Of a DNA stretch of 36,452 nt, positions 30,947 through 33,877 are shown piece after piece; positions within the stretch are counted from its first letter, which is position 1; each line of letters opens with the position of its first letter. Source of the DNA: an uncultured Methanosarcinales archaeon (GTDB taxonomy: Archaea > Nanobdellota > Nanobdellia > Woesearchaeales > CG1-02-33-12); contig CAYWLA010000002.1 in assembly GCA_964458955.1 (NCBI GenBank), forward strand, positions 1-36,452, in the 5' to 3' direction. The notes below the pieces were generated by a model that did not search any database, was not told the DNA's origin, and was given only the letters and a program-made list of their open reading frames with translations. Made by a program: the position numbers and the translations under genes.

Positions 30947-31657
30947 TTATTTCAGATAATAAACTATGTTCACATTAGCTGTAACCTTTACATCAGAGGG
31001 CATTATTGTTGCAGCCTCTTCAACCGCTAATTCTCCTGCGGCCTTCACCATATCATATCTATAGGGCATGTAATAGAAGTTGCTTTCTGAAACTGTTTTT
31101 ATTTTTCCCAGTTTTGCTCCTAGGCTTTCTGCAAGTATTTCTGCTTTTTCCTTTGCATTTTTAGCTGCCTCTGACAATGCCTGTTTTTTGTATTCCTGCT
31201 CTTTTTCTTGAGTTAATCCAAAGTTTATGTTATTGATCTGGTTTGCCCCGTTATTAACAGCAATATCAACTATTGTTCCAACTTTTGTTAAGTCAGCTGT
31301 CTTTATCTTTAGTGTTTGTGTTGCCCTCCATCCAATAACCTTTGAGCCCTCATCCTGTGTCCATGTTCTTTCCTCATACAGATTTAAGCTCTCTGTCTCA
31401 ATGTCATCTTCTGATATGCCTTTATATCTTAGGCCATCAATTATTGCATTAACAACCTTATTTGCTTCTGATTGTGCCTCTTCTGCAGTGTCCTTTACAA
31501 TAGAAATCCCCGCCCATACCTCTGCCTCATCTGGGTCAAATGTAAGCTCCGATGTTCCCTGTGCATTTAGTGTATTCCCTTCATTTGTCTGTTGGCATCC
31601 TGTCAAACCGATTAAGGCAATAACCAGCAATATTCCAAAAATCATATGTATTTTCAT
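30947..31657 (-). CDS. SIMPL-domain (DUF541) lipoprotein
   Basis: ATG 31657 lies 7 nt after GGAGGT. The signal peptide carries a lipobox (LIGLTGC). A SIMPL-like body follows (GTSELTFDPDEAEVWAGISI..., KGISEDDIET...). Confidence 0.75.
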   Translation of the reverse strand: MKIHMIFGILLVIALIGLTGCQQTNEGNTLNAQGTSELTFDPDEAEVWAGISIVKDTAEEAQSEANKVVNAIIDGLRYKGISEDDIETESLNLYEERTWTQDEGSKVIGWRATQTLKIKTADLTKVGTIVDIAVNNGANQINNINFGLTQEKEQEYKKQALSEAAKNAKEKAEILAESLGAKLGKIKTVSESNFYYMPYRYDMVKAAGELAVEEAATIMPSDVKVTANVNIVYYLK

Positions 31658-31714
31658 TTTAAATACCTCCATACAACAAGAATAATCTTGTTTCTTTTAA
31701 GCTTTTACCTTATC

Positions 31715-31730
31715 TTCGGTTAAAACCGAA
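31715..31730. terminator. Short perfect palindrome TTCGGTTAAAACCGAA just downstream of yggS
   Basis: It is visible directly in the sequence, 9 nt past the yggS stop on the minus strand. Its role as a terminator is an inference. Confidence 0.3.
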
Positions 31731-31738
31731 ACATGAAT

Positions 31739-32428
31739 TTATTTTCTTTCTCCAAAGATTGCTGTTCCGATTCTTACCATGTTGCTTCCTTCTTCTATGG
31801 CAACCTTATAGGAATTTGTCATTCCCATGGACAGTGTTTTCATGCTCACATTAGGCAGGTTAAGGGCCTTGATCTTGTCAAAGATTTCTTTTGTTCTCTT
31901 GAAATATTGCCTGGAGTTCTCAGGGTCTCCAAACCTTGGGCCCATTGTCATCAAGCCCTCTACTCTTATATGCTCCAATTTTGAAATATTTTTAATTAAA
32001 TTTTTTATATATTCCTCAAATGGCTCATGCTCATCTGGTTTTATGCCTGCTTTTGAATCCTCGCTGCCAATGTTTATTTCTATATAAACAGGCATTATGG
32101 TTTTTCCAGCTGCTTCAACCCTCTTGTCTATTGCCTGTGCTTTTTCATATGAATCAACAGTCTGTATTATATCAAAAATAGGAATGACTTTGTTTATCTT
32201 GTTTTTTTGTAGATGGCCAATCATATGCCATTTGACTTTTTTTGTTATTTCGCCAAGCTGCTCATGCATTTCCTGCGCTTCCTGAACATAATTTTCTCCA
32301 AGGTCAGTAGCGCCTGCCTCAATAAGCTCTTCTATTTCTTCCTTTGTTCTCTGCTTTGCAGCTATAACCAAGGTTACATGGCCTGGGATTTCTCTTCTAA
32401 TTTTTTTATAATTTTCAGCTATGCTCAT
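31739..32428 (-). CDS. yggS: YggS-family pyridoxal-phosphate homeostasis protein
   Basis: VTLVIAAKQRT (PLP Lys), GENYVQE, WHMIGHLQKNK and LSMGMTNSY are present. ATG 32428 is preferred over GTG 32437. Confidence 0.9.
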   Translation of the reverse strand: MSIAENYKKIRREIPGHVTLVIAAKQRTKEEIEELIEAGATDLGENYVQEAQEMHEQLGEITKKVKWHMIGHLQKNKINKVIPIFDIIQTVDSYEKAQAIDKRVEAAGKTIMPVYIEINIGSEDSKAGIKPDEHEPFEEYIKNLIKNISKLEHIRVEGLMTMGPRFGDPENSRQYFKRTKEIFDKIKALNLPNVSMKTLSMGMTNSYKVAIEEGSNMVRIGTAIFGERK

Positions 32429-32626
32429 TTCAGCCACAAAATAAAGCTTGGGTTTTGTTATTTATATAAGTTATGCTAAAGAAATTGTTTGAATTGGAAT
32501 CTGCAATATCAGGCTGCATTGTCAGGGCAAAACAACACAGCCTGATTTATTTAATTTTCAGAACTCTAAATTCATCTGTTGCTATTGCACTTGTATTTGA
32601 GTAGAGCATTTCAATAGATGTATAGT

Positions 32627-32678
32627 GTTAATGGTTAACAACGAAAGGTTTAAATAGTTGTTTATGTTAATTATTAAC
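32627..32678. promoter_or_regulatory. Left pair of 13-bp palindromes (GTTAATGGTTAAC 32627-32639; GTTAATTATTAAC 32666-32678) flanking a BRE/TATA box (GAAAGGTTTAAATA 32643-32656)
   Basis: Read directly from the sequence. ATG 32682 follows 3 nt after the second palindrome. The arrangement is that of operators bracketing a promoter. Confidence 0.6.
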
Positions 32679-32730
32679 AGGATGGAAGAAGATCTAAAAA
32701 ATAAAGCAAATAAGGTTGTTAATGCAATAA

Positions 32731-33087
32731 TTGATAGCCTGTATAGCAGAAAAATTAGGCATGCGTTCTGAATCTGCTTCTAATTTTTTCAATGCTTTAT
32801 TTGCAGCAGATGATTCTATCCTTGCTAAGATTGGTGAAAGACCAAAAGATCACACTGAGAGATTCAGGGTATTAAAACTAAAGTTTCCTGGATTATATAT
32901 TATAACTGACAAGCTGTTCTCAACTTATAGAAGAACTTACACTCAGGAATTGAAAAAAGAAGAATTAGAACTGGTTAAAAAGAGGATTAAAGATGCATTT
33001 AAAAACACAAATATTAAAATCCCAACAGATGAAGAAATTAAAGAAAAACTTACAGAACTTGTTAAAAAAGGAAAAATACTTGGTTGA
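32731..33087 (+). CDS. HTH-like protein fragment/ORF (middle frame of a three-frame module)
   Basis: It begins directly after a TAA, with TTG 32731 or ATG 32761 as possible starts. IAEKLGMRSESASNFFNAL looks like an HTH recognition region. A 29-codon ORF (32682-32771) in the previous frame supplies a plausible N-terminus, and the C-terminus (KLTELVKKGKILG*) reads on into the NTase ORF after a +1 shift. Confidence 0.4.
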   Translation: MIACIAEKLGMRSESASNFFNALFAADDSILAKIGERPKDHTERFRVLKLKFPGLYIITDKLFSTYRRTYTQELKKEELELVKKRIKDAFKNTNIKIPTDEEIKEKLTELVKKGKILG

Positions 33088-33586
33088 TGTATATATCTTT
33101 GGCTCAGCATTAAAAGGTAAAGAAGAACCAAAAGATATTGACTTGATCAGTTTATTTAGAGATAAAGACTATAAGCTTATCGAAGACATAAATTATGAGA
33201 TTAAAAAAATTGGAGATAAACTTGAGCTTAATCTGCATATAGAACCCCTAATTGTCGACGACATGTTTAGCAATAGAGCACACAGAAACATAATTCATGA
33301 GGGGTTTAGCATTAAGAACATGAAATCAGTAAGTAGCATACTGAATTTTGATTCTTTCTTAATTATAAGGTATGGGCTAAGAGATAAAAAAGCCTCTGAT
33401 AAGGTTAGATTTTCATATGCTTTATTTGGCAGAAAAAAAGGAGAAGGGGTTCTGGCTGGATTAAAGGGAAGAGAACTCGGCAAGGGAAGCATTTTAATTC
33501 CAATAGGCAAAGAAGCGGTTATTACATCTTTTTTCAAGCAATGGGGTGTAGAATTCAAAAAACAAAGAGCAATTCTATTTAGTTAA
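32993..33586 (+). CDS. Nucleotidyltransferase-domain protein (Pol-beta superfamily), possibly the 3' part of a frameshifted gene
   Basis: VDVYIFGSALKGKEEPKDIDLISLF is a G-S...D-x-D NTase motif. It is followed by a ~110-aa C-terminal region of unknown type. The first ~25 codons overlap the previous ORF. Confidence 0.6.
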   Translation: MHLKTQILKSQQMKKLKKNLQNLLKKEKYLVDVYIFGSALKGKEEPKDIDLISLFRDKDYKLIEDINYEIKKIGDKLELNLHIEPLIVDDMFSNRAHRNIIHEGFSIKNMKSVSSILNFDSFLIIRYGLRDKKASDKVRFSYALFGRKKGEGVLAGLKGRELGKGSILIPIGKEAVITSFFKQWGVEFKKQRAILFS

Positions 33587-33632
33587 TAATTAACAAAATA
33601 AGTTATAAAAGAGTTATTTGTTAATCATTAAC
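33582..33632. repeat. Right pair of 13-bp palindromes (GTTAATAATTAAC 33582-33594; GTTAATCATTAAC 33620-33632), a mirror image of the left pair
   Basis: The reverse complement AGTGTTAATGATTAACAA...TGTTAATTATTAAC aligns with the left end AGTGTTAATGGTTAACAA...TGTTAATTATTAAC. Spacing is 38 versus 39 bp. The first palindrome contains the NTase stop codon. Confidence 0.6.
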
Positions 33633-33744
33633 ACTCGCAAAAAACTCACAAGAACAAAATAGAATTAAAATGTTTCTATTATTCATTTTTTATTTAATAT
33701 TATTAAACTTTTTGTGAATAATAGTATCTTAAGCTTAATTTTGT

Positions 33745-33816
33745 TATAAATAAATACGGCTGCCGGGATTCGAACCCGAATTGCGACCTTGGGAAGGTCG
33801 AATCATAGCCATTAGA
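33745..33816 (-). tRNA. tRNA-Gly (CCC)
   Basis: The reverse complement folds with acceptor ACGGCTG/CAGCCGT, anticodon arm CGACC-TTCCCAA-GGTCG (anticodon CCC), T arm TCGGG-TTCGAAT-CCCGG and discriminator A. The D stem is weak (3 bp plus a mismatch). No CCA is encoded. Confidence 0.8.
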
Positions 33817-33877
33817 CCACAGCCGTATAATAACCAAGAAAACAAAGGGATTTAAAAGATTTTTGGAAAAAGCTTGT

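What the first reader, a model, noticed from the sequence alone, without database searches (positions are those of the whole stretch)
32627..33632. ~1-kb HTH/nucleotidyltransferase module bracketed by mirror-image pairs of GTTAAT-N-ATTAAC palindromes, ~110 bp from tRNA-Gly
I found four copies of a 13-bp palindrome in the window, and all four flank this module. Two lie upstream (32627-32639 with one mismatch, 32666-32678 perfect). Two lie downstream (33582-33594 and 33620-33632, both perfect). The intra-pair spacing is almost identical at 39 and 38 bp. The two ends align as ~55-bp imperfect inverted repeats: AGTGTTAATGRTTAACAA, a spacer containing a TATA-like box, then TGTTAATTATTAAC. On the left the palindromes bracket a BRE/TATA box and end 3 nt before an ATG, which is a textbook repressor-operator layout. 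On the right the mirrored copy overlaps the NTase stop codon, and its spacer carries a TATA-like TTTTATAA on the minus strand. That box would drive antisense transcription into the module. There are two readings. One is a small mobile or MITE-like cassette with long TIRs inserted near a tRNA, though I see no target-site duplication. The other is a self-contained module regulated from both ends by its own HTH protein through convergent sense/antisense promoters. I do not know a described element family with this architecture.
Basis: partly seen in the sequence, partly recalled or inferred. Interest (0 to 1): 0.7.

Follow-up and report, generated by a model that had tools for sequence, protein, structure and literature searches.

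The report
Mobile archaeal toxin-antitoxin cassette, operators both ends
The 1-kb block is a small HEPN/nucleotidyltransferase toxin-antitoxin cassette of DPANN archaea that carries pairs of the same 13-bp protein-binding palindrome at both of its ends and turns up at different places in related genomes, so it is a self-contained, movable gene unit and not a feature of the neighbouring tRNA.

Summary
Four GTTAAT-N-ATTAAC palindromes lie exactly where stated, and 0.21 are expected by chance.

The gene content was misread. Gene 1 is a HEPN-fold protein, not an HTH. In this window it is frameshifted by a 37-nt patch copied from the nearby SIMPL gene. Gene 2 is an MntA-like minimal nucleotidyltransferase with an extra, uncatalogued C-terminal domain.

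About 19 related lineages were recovered from Nanoarchaeota/Woesearchaeota DNA, and 12-13 keep the four-site layout:
- The upstream pair sandwiches a strongly conserved BRE/TATA. The ATG follows 0-5 nt after the second palindrome, which is a classic autorepressed, leaderless promoter.
- The downstream pair sits on the nucleotidyltransferase stop codon with the same 38-39 bp spacing, but has no conserved promoter on either strand.

The cassette moves. Copies 94-97% identical lie in three unrelated contexts. A relative has an empty tRNA-Gly/YggS site and carries the cassette upstream of rpl3 instead. In six lineages, 22-98-nt direct repeats of host DNA flank it. Permuted flanks in the window, and a permuted operator arrangement in one lineage, hint at circular or tandem intermediates.

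The tRNA adjacency is coincidental. I rate this a new variant of a known kind (HEPN-MNT toxin-antitoxin). The role of the 3' operator pair and the way the cassette inserts are unresolved.

The parts
32627..32639 (.). P1, outer upstream operator palindrome GTTAATGGTTAAC (1 mismatch), immediately upstream of the BRE
   Evidence: The same position is conserved in 12 lineages.
32640..32656 (+). BRE-like AACGAAAGG plus TATA box TTTAAATA, the promoter of the cassette operon
   Evidence: Consensus AACRAAAG-N-TTTAWATA at a fixed offset from P1 in 12 lineages. PWM self-scores are 12.8-22.3 for 11 of the 12 (the twelfth, L013, did not fit the fixed frame), against a shuffled 95th percentile of 3.9.
32666..32678 (.). 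P2, inner upstream operator palindrome GTTAATTATTAAC. It covers the predicted transcription start and ends 3 nt before the ATG, which implies a leaderless mRNA.
   Evidence: The P2-to-ATG gap is 0-5 nt across lineages. The start-site position is inferred from the usual archaeal TATA-to-start distance.
32682..32771 (+). 5' fragment of the HEPN-fold gene (29 codons, then a premature stop caused by a frameshift)
   Evidence: The intact gene is 131-139 aa in L007, L009 and L010.
32704..32740 (+). Templated patch: 36/37 nt identical to the coding strand of the SIMPL gene at 31431-31467 (minus strand). It replaces 12 nt with 22 nt and so frameshifts gene 1.
   Evidence: Microhomologies AGCAAA and TGATRGCC sit at its two edges.
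32731..33087 (+). Remainder of the HEPN-fold gene in the +1 frame (118-codon ORF; ATG at 32761 gives the 108-aa product that gene callers report). It overlaps the NTase gene by 59 nt, as in intact relatives.
   Evidence: P0062. AF2 pLDDT is 92 on the 95%-identical intact P0060. The Foldseek top hit is HEPN AF_0298 (2hsb, TM 0.69/0.76).
33029..33586 (+). Minimal nucleotidyltransferase (MntA-like, residues ~1-95) fused to a conserved ~85-aa C-terminal domain with strand/helix order b-a-(a)-b-b-a-b and motif SDKVRFSYALFGR
   Evidence: Pfam Polbeta/NTP_transf_2. AF2 pLDDT is 91. Best folds are MntA antitoxins 6m6u, 7bxo, 8xeo and 5yep. The C-terminal domain has no Pfam or PDB sequence hit but matches 611 clusters elsewhere.
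33582..33594 (.). P3, inner downstream palindrome GTTAATAATTAAC. Its left half supplies the NTase stop codon TAA.
   Evidence: The stop codon lies inside or next to P3 in 9 lineages.
33620..33632 (.). P4, outer downstream palindrome GTTAATCATTAAC, 38 bp from P3
   Evidence: P3-P4 spacing is 38-39 bp in all lineages that have the pair.
33633..33667 (+). A-rich tail that travels with the cassette. It reads as oligo-T on the minus strand (TTTTTT next to P4).
   Evidence: Shared by the window, L007 and L009 up to about 33663-33667, and mostly deleted in L010.
32505..32614 (.). Carried-over flank: a relic 3' end of a gene plus a terminator hairpin. It matches L043 565-456 at 87% over 110 nt.
33668..33730 (.). 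Carried-over flank: matches L043 675-613 (region upstream of a Fic gene) at 94% over 64 nt. In L043 it lies 57 nt from the other flank, but in the opposite order.

Best explanation
Window ~32613-33667 is a two-gene HEPN-MNT (type VII-like) toxin-antitoxin cassette of DPANN archaea, and it carries its own regulatory DNA at both ends.

The 13-bp palindromes are operators for a dimeric DNA-binding protein encoded by the cassette. That protein is most likely the nucleotidyltransferase acting through its highly conserved C-terminal domain, alone or in complex with the HEPN protein. This assignment is inferred, not shown.

P1 and P2 sandwich the BRE/TATA and the transcription start of a leaderless operon, so binding there represses the cassette's own promoter. 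P3 and P4 lie on the stop codon with the same spacing. They form a second operator set that is conserved as binding sites without a conserved promoter. I think this set cooperates with the first one by looping, giving a four-site complex. I also think it acts as a protein roadblock that ends the operon's transcript and shields the cassette from convergent neighbours. Together these would make expression independent of where the cassette lands.

The unit from P1 to P4 plus a short tail is what moves between genome sites. Insertion is probably done by host illegitimate recombination or break repair, not by a dedicated transposase. It often duplicates 20-100+ nt of target, and it probably passes through circular or tandem intermediates.

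In this window the copy is decaying. Its HEPN gene is frameshifted by a templated patch, while the nucleotidyltransferase gene is intact.
For: Shown:
- The palindromes are significant and found only with the cassette.
- Gene 1 has a HEPN fold and gene 2 has an MntA-like fold.
- The four-site layout, with 38-39 bp spacing at both ends, is present in 12-13 of ~19 lineages whose NTases are only 36-67% identical.
- The upstream unit holds a near-invariant BRE/TATA, and the ATG follows 0-5 nt after P2.
- P3 overlaps or abuts the stop codon in 9 lineages.
- The downstream spacer has no conserved BRE/TATA, yet its palindromes are as well kept as the upstream ones.
- L014 and L029 lack a downstream pair but have both unit types in tandem upstream, so they still have four sites.
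- An MNT antitoxin binding its own two-palindrome promoter is documented for Shewanella SO_3165 (PMC4621449).
- A 27%-identical homologue on Thermococcus barophilus plasmid pTBMP1 has different half-sites (TCATGAGAAC). They flank its TATA and recur at the 3' end of its NTase gene; 5 hits against 0.40 expected.

Mobility:
- Cassettes 94-97% identical have unrelated flanks in three contexts.
- L040-L042 have an empty site, with the YggS start 17 nt from tRNA-Gly. L041 belongs to the same MAG as L010, where the cassette sits upstream of rpl3.
- Host flanks between those genomes are 86-89% identical, against 94% for the cassette.
- Host direct repeats of 22-98 nt flank the cassette in 6 lineages. 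Inverted and shuffled controls show nothing comparable.
- The window's flanks are permuted relative to L043.
Against: - No DNA-binding domain is recognised in either protein, and no structure or docking of a protein-DNA complex could be run. Which protein binds is therefore a guess.
- Four lineages (L005, L013, L027, L050) manage with the upstream pair only, so the 3' pair is not indispensable.
- In L015/L031 the 3' pair directly precedes a histone-fold gene, with the ATG 1 nt after P4. There it behaves as a promoter/operator and not as a pure roadblock.
- P2-P3 distances vary from 898 to 916 bp without constant helical phase.
- The link between a 3' pair and a convergent downstream gene is weak: 8 convergent against 5 co-directional where the pair is present, and 0 against 3 where it is absent (about p=0.1), and it partly rests on ORF heuristics.
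- The HEPN protein lacks a conserved Rx4-6H motif, and the gene order is the reverse of typical MNT-HEPN pairs. Toxin-antitoxin function is therefore assumed, not shown.
- No flanking repeat is detectable in the window itself.
Confidence: 0.6

Rival explanations
1. P3-P4 is the promoter/operator of a third cassette gene (a small histone-fold protein). That gene has been lost in the window lineage, so the right-hand pair here is a relic.
For: - In L015/L031 a 59-aa histone-fold ORF starts 1 nt after P4, mirroring the P2-ATG arrangement. It lies inside the 92-nt flanking host repeats, so it belongs to the cassette.
- L005/L006/L022/L023 also have a histone-fold gene (Pfam CBFD_NFYB_HMF) just after the NTase.
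- The A-rich start of the P3-P4 spacer resembles the BRE side of the upstream unit.
Against: - At least ten lineages without a third gene keep P3 and P4 as perfect or near-perfect palindromes at exact 38-39 bp spacing, while the TATA between them has decayed. A relic would lose the palindromes too.
- In L019 the host repeat starts 1 nt after P4, so that cassette ends at P4.
- The lineage that has the histone gene but no palindromes (L005) shows the two features are separable.
Confidence: 0.2
2. The cassette is an autonomous transposable element of a new kind. A cassette protein binds the two palindrome pairs as element ends and promotes excision as a circle and re-insertion, with widely staggered target cuts.
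For: - Homology between copies starts and stops at the palindrome pairs.
- In L019 the host repeats abut P1 and P4 to within 0-1 nt.
- Flanking direct repeats occur in 6 lineages.
- L014/L029 have a head-to-tail arrangement of the two unit types, 5 nt apart.
- The window's carried-over flanks are circularly permuted.
- Every lineage sits in a different context.
- The NTase C-terminal domain has the strand/helix order of Cas2-like domains (my inference).
Against: - No transposase, integrase, Cas1 or HUH domain is present in 1 kb.
- Repeat length varies from 22 to 98+ nt. The distance from repeat to palindrome varies from 0 to 38 nt on the left and from 1 to 231 nt on the right.
- Old host flanks are carried along.
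- L007 lacks half of P1.
- Only one copy is present in the 36-kb window, and there is no sign of multiple copies per genome.
- The circle would have been opened at arbitrary points, not at the ends.
Confidence: 0.12
3. One reading: the right-hand unit is a mirror-image promoter that drives an antisense RNA into the module, giving convergent sense/antisense control.
For: - The window has TTTTATAA on the minus strand at 33603-33610.
- Read on the minus strand, many lineages show a T-rich octamer about 9 nt from P4, preceded by purines. L011 (AAAGAGG-TTTAAAATA) and L028 (AAAAAAGAG-TTTATATC) look promoter-like.
Against: - The PWM built from the upstream promoters scores downstream spacers -13 to +7.6 on the minus strand and -8.3 to +3.3 on the plus strand. 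That is within the shuffled range (95th percentile 3.9), against mostly 18-22 for the real promoters.
- The spacer is quasi-symmetric (A-run ... T-run), so its orientation cannot be called.
- In L015 the unit plainly serves a plus-strand gene.
Confidence: 0.1
4. The block is an integron-type gene cassette and the palindrome units are attC-like recombination sites.
For: - Archaeal integrons, including some in Nanoarchaeota, are reported, and toxin-antitoxin genes are the commonest annotated cassette function (PMC9668308).
- The cassette is ~1 kb with an imperfect palindromic element at its 3' end.
- The half-sites resemble the GTTRRRY/RYYYAAC cores (6/7 each; my reading).
Against: - From R''-like to R'-like core is only 39 nt. 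To my knowledge that is below known attC sizes, and there is no room for L boxes.
- The upstream unit is a bona fide promoter.
- No cassette array or intI appears in any of ~19 contexts. The neighbours are housekeeping genes.
- Host direct repeats flank the insertions, which integrase recombination does not produce.
Confidence: 0.03

Closest known systems
HEPN-MNT (HepT-MntA) type VII toxin-antitoxin systems, e.g. Shewanella oneidensis SO_3166/SO_3165
   Same: - Adjacent HEPN-fold and minimal-nucleotidyltransferase genes.
- The NTase domain's best structural matches are MntA antitoxins (6m6u, 7bxo, 5yep, 8xeo).
- The NTase G-S...D-x-D motif is invariant.
- Invariant tyrosines (Y87, Y91) sit in the C-terminal part of the HEPN protein, where AMPylation is proposed for such pairs.
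- The Shewanella MNT binds its own promoter, which holds two palindromes.
   Different: - The gene order is HEPN first, whereas MNT is 'almost always' 5' (PMC3710099).
- The HEPN protein has no conserved Rx4-6H motif.
- Neither protein reaches any Pfam, NCBIfam or PADLOC HEPN/MntA threshold.
- The NTase carries an extra ~85-aa domain.
- The promoter is an archaeal BRE/TATA with a leaderless start.
- A second operator pair sits at the 3' end.
Operons with auxiliary operators and repressor-mediated DNA looping (lac O1/O2/O3, gal OE/OI, deo). This comparison is from general knowledge.
   Same: Identical operator sequences lie both at the promoter and far downstream, at or after the coding region. 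This suggests one multimeric repressor contacting both sets.
   Different: Here each end has two operators at a fixed 38-39 bp spacing, and the distal set lies exactly on the operon's stop codon. Looping was not tested. No toxin-antitoxin system with a 3' operator set is known to me.
IS elements and MITEs with terminal inverted repeats and target-site duplications
   Same: - A short unit bounded by similar sequences at both ends.
- Near-identical copies in unrelated contexts, plus an empty site in a relative.
- Flanking direct repeats of target DNA.
   Different: - No transposase.
- The ends are palindromes, so they have no orientation.
- Repeats are long and variable (22-98+ nt), not fixed and short.
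- Boundaries are imprecise and old flanks are carried along.
Integron gene cassettes with attC sites, including archaeal integrons (PMC9668308)
   Same: About 1 kb, often toxin-antitoxin genes, with an imperfect palindromic site at the 3' end, and reported in the same archaeal phylum.
   Different: The unit is too short for an attC. It is not in arrays and has no integrase nearby. The upstream unit is a promoter, and host duplications flank the insertions.
Thermococcus barophilus MP plasmid pTBMP1 genes TERMP_RS10980/RS10975 (annotated as a hypothetical protein and a nucleotidyltransferase domain-containing protein)
   Same: - A distant member of the same two-gene family: 34% identity for the HEPN-like protein and 27% for the NTase, including the C-terminal domain.
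- The same gene order and overlapping genes.
- Inverted half-sites flank the TATA, and a copy recurs at the 3' end of the NTase gene.
   Different: The operator sequence is different (TCATGAGAAC). Only one clear 3' half-site is present, and it lies inside the coding region. The genes are plasmid-borne in a cultured euryarchaeon.

Membership tests
HEPN-MNT (type VII) toxin-antitoxin | Adjacent genes for a HEPN-fold protein and a minimal nucleotidyltransferase | tested here: met
   Both AF2 models are confident (pLDDT 92 and 91). Foldseek top hits are HEPN AF_0298 (2hsb, TM 0.69/0.76) and MntA chains (prob 1.00). The genes overlap by 59 nt.
HEPN-MNT (type VII) toxin-antitoxin | NTase catalytic motif G-[GS]-x9-13-D-x-[DE] | tested here: met
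   G25, S26, D36 and D38 are invariant in 25 sequences.
HEPN-MNT (type VII) toxin-antitoxin | Rx4-6H RNase motif in the HEPN toxin | tested here: not met
   The invariant residues are H62, R65, Y87, R88 and Y91. No histidine lies 5-7 residues after a conserved arginine. The HEPN-T family, which includes the best structural match 2hsb, often lacks the H (PMC3710099).
HEPN-MNT (type VII) toxin-antitoxin | MNT gene 5' of the HEPN gene | tested here: not met
   HEPN is 5' in all lineages. The literature says MNT is almost always 5'.
HEPN-MNT (type VII) toxin-antitoxin | HEPN toxicity neutralised by MNT-catalysed AMPylation of a tyrosine | not testable with these tools
   Only the invariant tyrosines Y87 and Y91 are seen.
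HEPN-MNT (type VII) toxin-antitoxin | Sequence membership in the curated models (NCBIfam MntA_antitoxin, Pfam HEPN/DUF86) | tested here: not met
   MntA_antitoxin scores 17.4 bits against a cut-off of 60. Gene 1 has no HEPN-family hit. One distant homologue is named UPF0332 by its source.
Transposon / MITE | Terminal inverted repeats specific to the ends | tested here: inconclusive
   Similarity between the ends lies in palindromes, which read the same in both orientations. Direct and inverted alignments score alike. The spacers are not conserved between ends.
Transposon / MITE | Target-site duplication of fixed short length | tested here: not met
   Flanking repeats of 22, 36, 49-54, 61(+34), 92 and 98 nt occur in 6 lineages. 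None is found in the window or in 8 others.
Transposon / MITE | A transposase, either encoded (autonomous) or supplied by a related autonomous element | tested here: not met
   There are only two genes, and neither matches a transposase or integrase family. No larger related element was found.
Integron gene cassette | attC site of about 57-141 nt with R''/L''/L'/R' boxes (size range from memory) | tested here: not met
   The R''-like to R'-like span is 39 nt with a 25-nt spacer.
Integron gene cassette | Located in an array of cassettes and/or next to intI | tested here: not met
   About 19 contexts all show single cassettes between housekeeping genes.
Autoregulated operon with operators flanking an archaeal promoter | Conserved BRE/TATA between two identical palindromes, with the start codon just downstream | tested here: met
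   Seen in 12 lineages, with an ATG gap of 0-5 nt.
Autoregulated operon with operators flanking an archaeal promoter | A cassette protein binds the palindromes | not testable with these tools
   Only co-occurrence is shown: the palindromes are found nowhere else in 245 kb.

The most novel reading that the evidence does not exclude
The HEPN-MNT cassette is a new kind of archaeal mobile element. Its own end-binding protein (the nucleotidyltransferase with a Cas2-like C-terminal domain) would synapse the two palindrome pairs. It would promote excision as a circle and re-insertion with widely staggered target breaks. That would account for the long variable flanking repeats, the head-to-tail operator junction in L014/L029 and the circularly permuted flanks in this window.
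Probability: 0.12. Interest if true: 0.85.

Novelty: new variant of a known kind. Interest (0 to 1): 0.55.

Why it matters
HEPN-MNT pairs are described as very common toxin-antitoxin modules in archaea, yet how they are regulated and how they spread is largely unknown there.

This family is a compact, comparatively well-defined case:
- It has a 13-bp operator and a textbook archaeal promoter.
- It has a second operator pair exactly at the operon's end, which suggests a cassette that carries its own insulation or looping sites so that it works wherever it lands.
- It has traceable movements between near-identical genomes of DPANN archaea. These organisms have tiny genomes, and their routes of gene gain are poorly understood.

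The long flanking duplications and permuted junctions, if confirmed, point to an insertion route (host- or cassette-driven) that has not been described for such modules.

The operator and binding-protein pair could also serve as an orthogonal regulatory part for archaeal genetics. The Thermococcus barophilus plasmid homologue offers a cultivable system in which to test these ideas.

Tried and rejected
- **Fused gene.** I joined the three ORF pieces into one 303-aa protein to test for a pseudogenised fusion. All 59 homologues were stand-alone ~185-aa NTases, so that idea was rejected.
- **HTH in gene 1.** Pfam shows nothing and the fold is HEPN.
- **tRNA as a target.** No tRNA lies near any other cassette. 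One cassette is next to an SRP RNA gene, which I treat as coincidence.
- **Known RNA in or around the module.** Rfam finds only the tRNA.
- **Promoter orientation of the right-hand unit.** The PWM test was uninformative on both strands.
- **Viruses and plasmids as carriers.** No palindrome pair occurs in IMG/VR and there is no phage hit. The only plasmid hit is the distant Thermococcus one.
- **Sequence searches of PDB with profiles** of gene 1, the NTase and the C-terminal domain gave nothing meaningful. Pfam on the C-terminal domain alone gave nothing.
- **Flank homology among the three contexts** of the 94-97% cassette: none beyond about 14 nt on the left and 35 nt on the right. A 29-nt L007/L010 similarity was borderline and was dropped.
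- **L001 versus L003** looked like a downstream polymorphism but is the same sequence with different gene calls.
- **More contexts via P0060** returned only the rpl3 site.
- **Fold of the C-terminal domain.** I could not run a fold search on it separately. 'Cas2-like' rests only on the order of strands and helices.
Full report
**1. Observation**

A search for GTTAATNATTAAC at <=1 mismatch finds exactly four sites in the 36,452-nt window: 32627, 32666, 33582 and 33620. The expected number is 0.21, and no shuffle out of 100 reached four. The spacings are 39 and 38 bp. P2 ends 3 nt before an ATG, and P3 contains the stop codon of the nucleotidyltransferase (NTase) gene. tRNA-Gly(CCC) lies on the minus strand at 33754-33827.

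The claimed ~55-bp inverted repeat is not specific. Each site is itself a palindrome, so the two ends align as direct repeats (72-75%) just as well as inverted repeats (73-81%).

**2. Genes**

The module reads as three ORF pieces in three successive frames. A search with an artificial fusion of the three returned only stand-alone proteins of ~185 aa matching the last piece. The NTase is therefore a separate gene at 33029-33586.

Close relatives (L007, L009, L010) have an intact upstream gene of 131-139 aa. In the window that gene is frameshifted. An alignment shows that 12 nt have been replaced by 22 nt. The resulting 37-nt stretch (32704-32740) is 36/37 identical to the coding strand of the SIMPL gene 1.2 kb away (31431-31467, opposite strand), with microhomology at both edges. 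This looks like a templated (template-switch) mutation.

Gene 1 is not an HTH:
- It has no Pfam, NCBIfam or PADLOC match.
- Its AlphaFold2 model (pLDDT 92) is an all-helical bundle.
- Its best PDB matches are HEPN proteins: AF_0298 (2hsb, TM 0.69/0.76, rmsd 2.0), 2q00, 4nqf, 1wol and HepT chains.
- One distant sequence relative is labelled UPF0332 by its source.

The NTase model (pLDDT 91) matches MntA antitoxins of HEPN-MNT systems in its first ~95 residues (6m6u, 7bxo, 8xeo, 5yep). It then has a second domain with the order b-a-(a)-b-b-a-b. This domain contains the most conserved stretch of the protein (SDKVRFSYALYGR). It has no Pfam or PDB sequence match. It is nevertheless widespread: 611 clusters at E<=0.001. 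It occurs alone, as tandem pairs, fused to NTases, and once together with a NucS-type nuclease domain. Calling it Cas2-like is my inference from the order of strands and helices only.

**3. Family and architecture**

Related loci come from MAGs labelled Nanoarchaeota or Woesearchaeota and from metagenomes. About 19 lineages can be told apart (cassette <90% identical).
- 12-13 have two palindromes upstream and two downstream, always 38-39 bp apart within a pair and 898-916 bp between P2 and P3.
- Four lineages have only the upstream pair.
- L014 and L029 have four sites upstream and none downstream.
- No site with <=1 mismatch occurs away from a cassette in 245 kb examined.

The upstream spacer is nearly invariant: AACRAAAG-N-TTTAWATA at a fixed offset from P1. 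The start codon follows 0-5 nt after P2. This is an archaeal BRE/TATA promoter of a leaderless mRNA, with operators on both sides.

The downstream spacer keeps only an A-rich start and a T-rich end. A PWM built from the upstream promoters scores it within the shuffled range on both strands. P3 contains or abuts the NTase stop codon in nine lineages, so the downstream pair has evolved as part of the cassette.

Two variants are informative:
- In L015/L031 a histone-fold ORF starts 1 nt after P4 and lies inside the flanking host repeats. Another lineage (L005 group) also has a histone-fold gene downstream, but without palindromes.
- In L014, the extra upstream unit has a spacer of the downstream type (AATAAGCCTATTTTA, as in L011 and L012). 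It sits 5 nt before the promoter unit. This is a head-to-tail, circularly permuted arrangement.

**4. Mobility**

Window 32621-33634/33667 is 94-95% identical to L009, L010/L017 and L007/L008, and those copies are 96-98% identical to each other. The flanks are unrelated, except that L009 and L010 share the rpl3-upstream site. That gives three contexts for one cassette.

Relatives L040-L042 share 86-89% nucleotide identity with the window across SIMPL, YggS, tRNA-Gly, the methyltransferase and VIT1. In them the YggS start codon is 17 nt from the tRNA-Gly gene and there is no cassette. L041 belongs to the same MAG as L010 (accession prefix CAYOHL01), where the cassette lies upstream of rpl3.

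L038 is 98.5% identical to the window up to 32480 and then diverges, with no palindromes in the 240 nt before its contig ends. L021 and L045 share the cassette (93%) and the left flank (90%) but not the right flank. No other cassette is near a tRNA.

**5. Flanking repeats and permuted flanks**

In six lineages the cassette is bracketed by direct repeats of host sequence:

| Locus | Repeat length | Identity |
|---|---|---|
| L010 | 36 nt | 97% |
| L011 | 61 nt, plus a second of 34 nt | 87% (61-nt repeat) |
| L019 | 49-54 nt | 89% |
| L028 | 98 nt | 90% |
| L015/L031 | 92 nt | ~75% |
| L001 | 22 nt | 95% |

In L019 the repeats abut P1 and P4 to within 0-1 nt. Direct alignment scores are 19.5-73, against 9-13 for inverted controls and <=16.5 for shuffles. 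Where the repeats can be read, one copy is the intact 3' end of a host gene and the other is a relic.

No such repeat is seen in the window or in eight other lineages.

The window's own flanks tell a related story. 32505-32614 is a relic gene end plus terminator hairpin, and 33668-33730 is a second piece of foreign flank. They match two segments that lie 57 nt apart in L043, but in the opposite order. This is what one expects if the cassette arrived from a site where it was flanked by a duplication of that segment, or via a circle opened inside it. About 14 nt left of P1 and about 35 nt right of P4 also travel with the cassette.

**6. Interpretation**

The gene pair, the folds and the promoter layout place this with HEPN-MNT toxin-antitoxin modules. 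For the Shewanella module, the MNT antitoxin has been shown to bind its own promoter, which holds two palindromes (PMC4621449).

What is new is the second operator pair at the 3' boundary and the cassette-like behaviour. I favour the view that all four sites are bound by a cassette protein. The upstream pair would repress the promoter. The downstream pair would cooperate with it through looping and act as a roadblock at the operon's end. Four points fit this view:
- The palindromes are retained without a promoter between them.
- L014/L029 still have four sites, differently arranged.
- There is a weak trend for the 3' pair to face convergent neighbours (8 of 13 with the pair, against 0 of 3 without; about p=0.1).
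- A 27%-identical homologue on a Thermococcus barophilus plasmid has different half-sites that flank its TATA and recur at the 3' end of its NTase gene (5 hits against 0.40 expected).

Which protein binds is inferred, not shown.

Movement is best explained by horizontal transfer plus host illegitimate recombination at staggered breaks, with addiction-type selection trimming the unit to its functional minimum. An active, cassette-encoded transposition mechanism is not excluded, but nothing resembling a transposase is present and the boundaries are imprecise.

**7. Caveats**

- All relatives come from metagenome assemblies. Many contigs are short, and gene orientation downstream of several cassettes rests on ORF heuristics.
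- The HEPN protein lacks the canonical Rx4-6H motif, and the gene order is the reverse of the usual one. Toxin-antitoxin function is therefore assumed by analogy.
- No protein-DNA modelling could be run.

Noticed in passing
window 32704-32740 and 31431-31467: A 37-nt stretch inside gene 1 is 36/37 identical to the coding strand of the SIMPL gene 1.2 kb away, in inverted orientation. It replaces 12 nt with 22 nt between short microhomologies and frameshifts the HEPN gene. It looks like a template-switch mutation. It is also present in L016, an independent assembly of the same population.
   Followed up: yes
L040, L041, L042 (e.g. L041 3243-3500): The orthologous tRNA-Gly in these relatives appears to carry a ~130-nt insertion in the T-arm (GCCGGGAC[...]TGAACCCGG). 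Neither ARAGORN nor Rfam calls it. It may be a non-canonical tRNA intron.
   Followed up: partly
L009 2336-3481 (minus strand): A 381-aa ORF with a C-terminal CxxC...CxxC pattern, which by eye looks TnpB/IS605-OrfB-like. It lies in ~1.3 kb that is present between rpl3 and rpl4 in L009 but absent from the otherwise collinear L010.
   Followed up: no
L014 2224-2492: An archaeal SRP RNA gene (Rfam RF01857, 112 bits) lies 54 nt upstream of the cassette in L014. This is the second cassette next to a stable RNA gene, after the tRNA-Gly in the window.
   Followed up: partly
L010 / L041 (MAG CAYOHL01, GCA_964403775.1): This MAG is labelled 'uncultured Methanosarcinales archaeon'. Its contigs are collinear with, and 85-89% identical to, Nanoarchaeota-labelled sequence (L009) and to the window. 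The taxonomic label is probably wrong.
   Followed up: no
window 32480 onward compared with L038 and L041: The interval between the YggS start and the 3' end of tRNA-Gly is hypervariable among close relatives. It is 17 nt in L041 and a 1.3-kb block in the window. In L038, which is 98.5% identical up to 32480, the sequence there is unrelated.
   Followed up: partly
L040-L042 (e.g. L041 4174-4847) compared with window ~31672-31739: Relatives carry two TMP-TENI (thiamine-phosphate synthase-like) ORF pieces between YggS and SIMPL, apparently a split gene. The window and L038 lack them.
   Followed up: no
L052 264-277 (T. barophilus pTBMP1): A perfect 14-bp palindrome GTTATCATGATAAC lies ~50 nt upstream of a ParD/PIN toxin-antitoxin pair. 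It shares the TCATGA core with the half-sites of the neighbouring HEPN-like/NTase operon.
   Followed up: no
L001 3688-3942 (also L002-L004, L048): In these lineages gene 1 is called as only 84 aa, ending right after the YRRTYT motif and lacking the last two helices. Either it is truncated or a second frameshift is present.
   Followed up: no
window 33671-33718: A 15-codon hydrophobic ORF (MFLLFIFYLILLNFL) lies in the carried-over right flank between the cassette tail and the tRNA. It is probably a chance ORF in AT-rich DNA.
   Followed up: no
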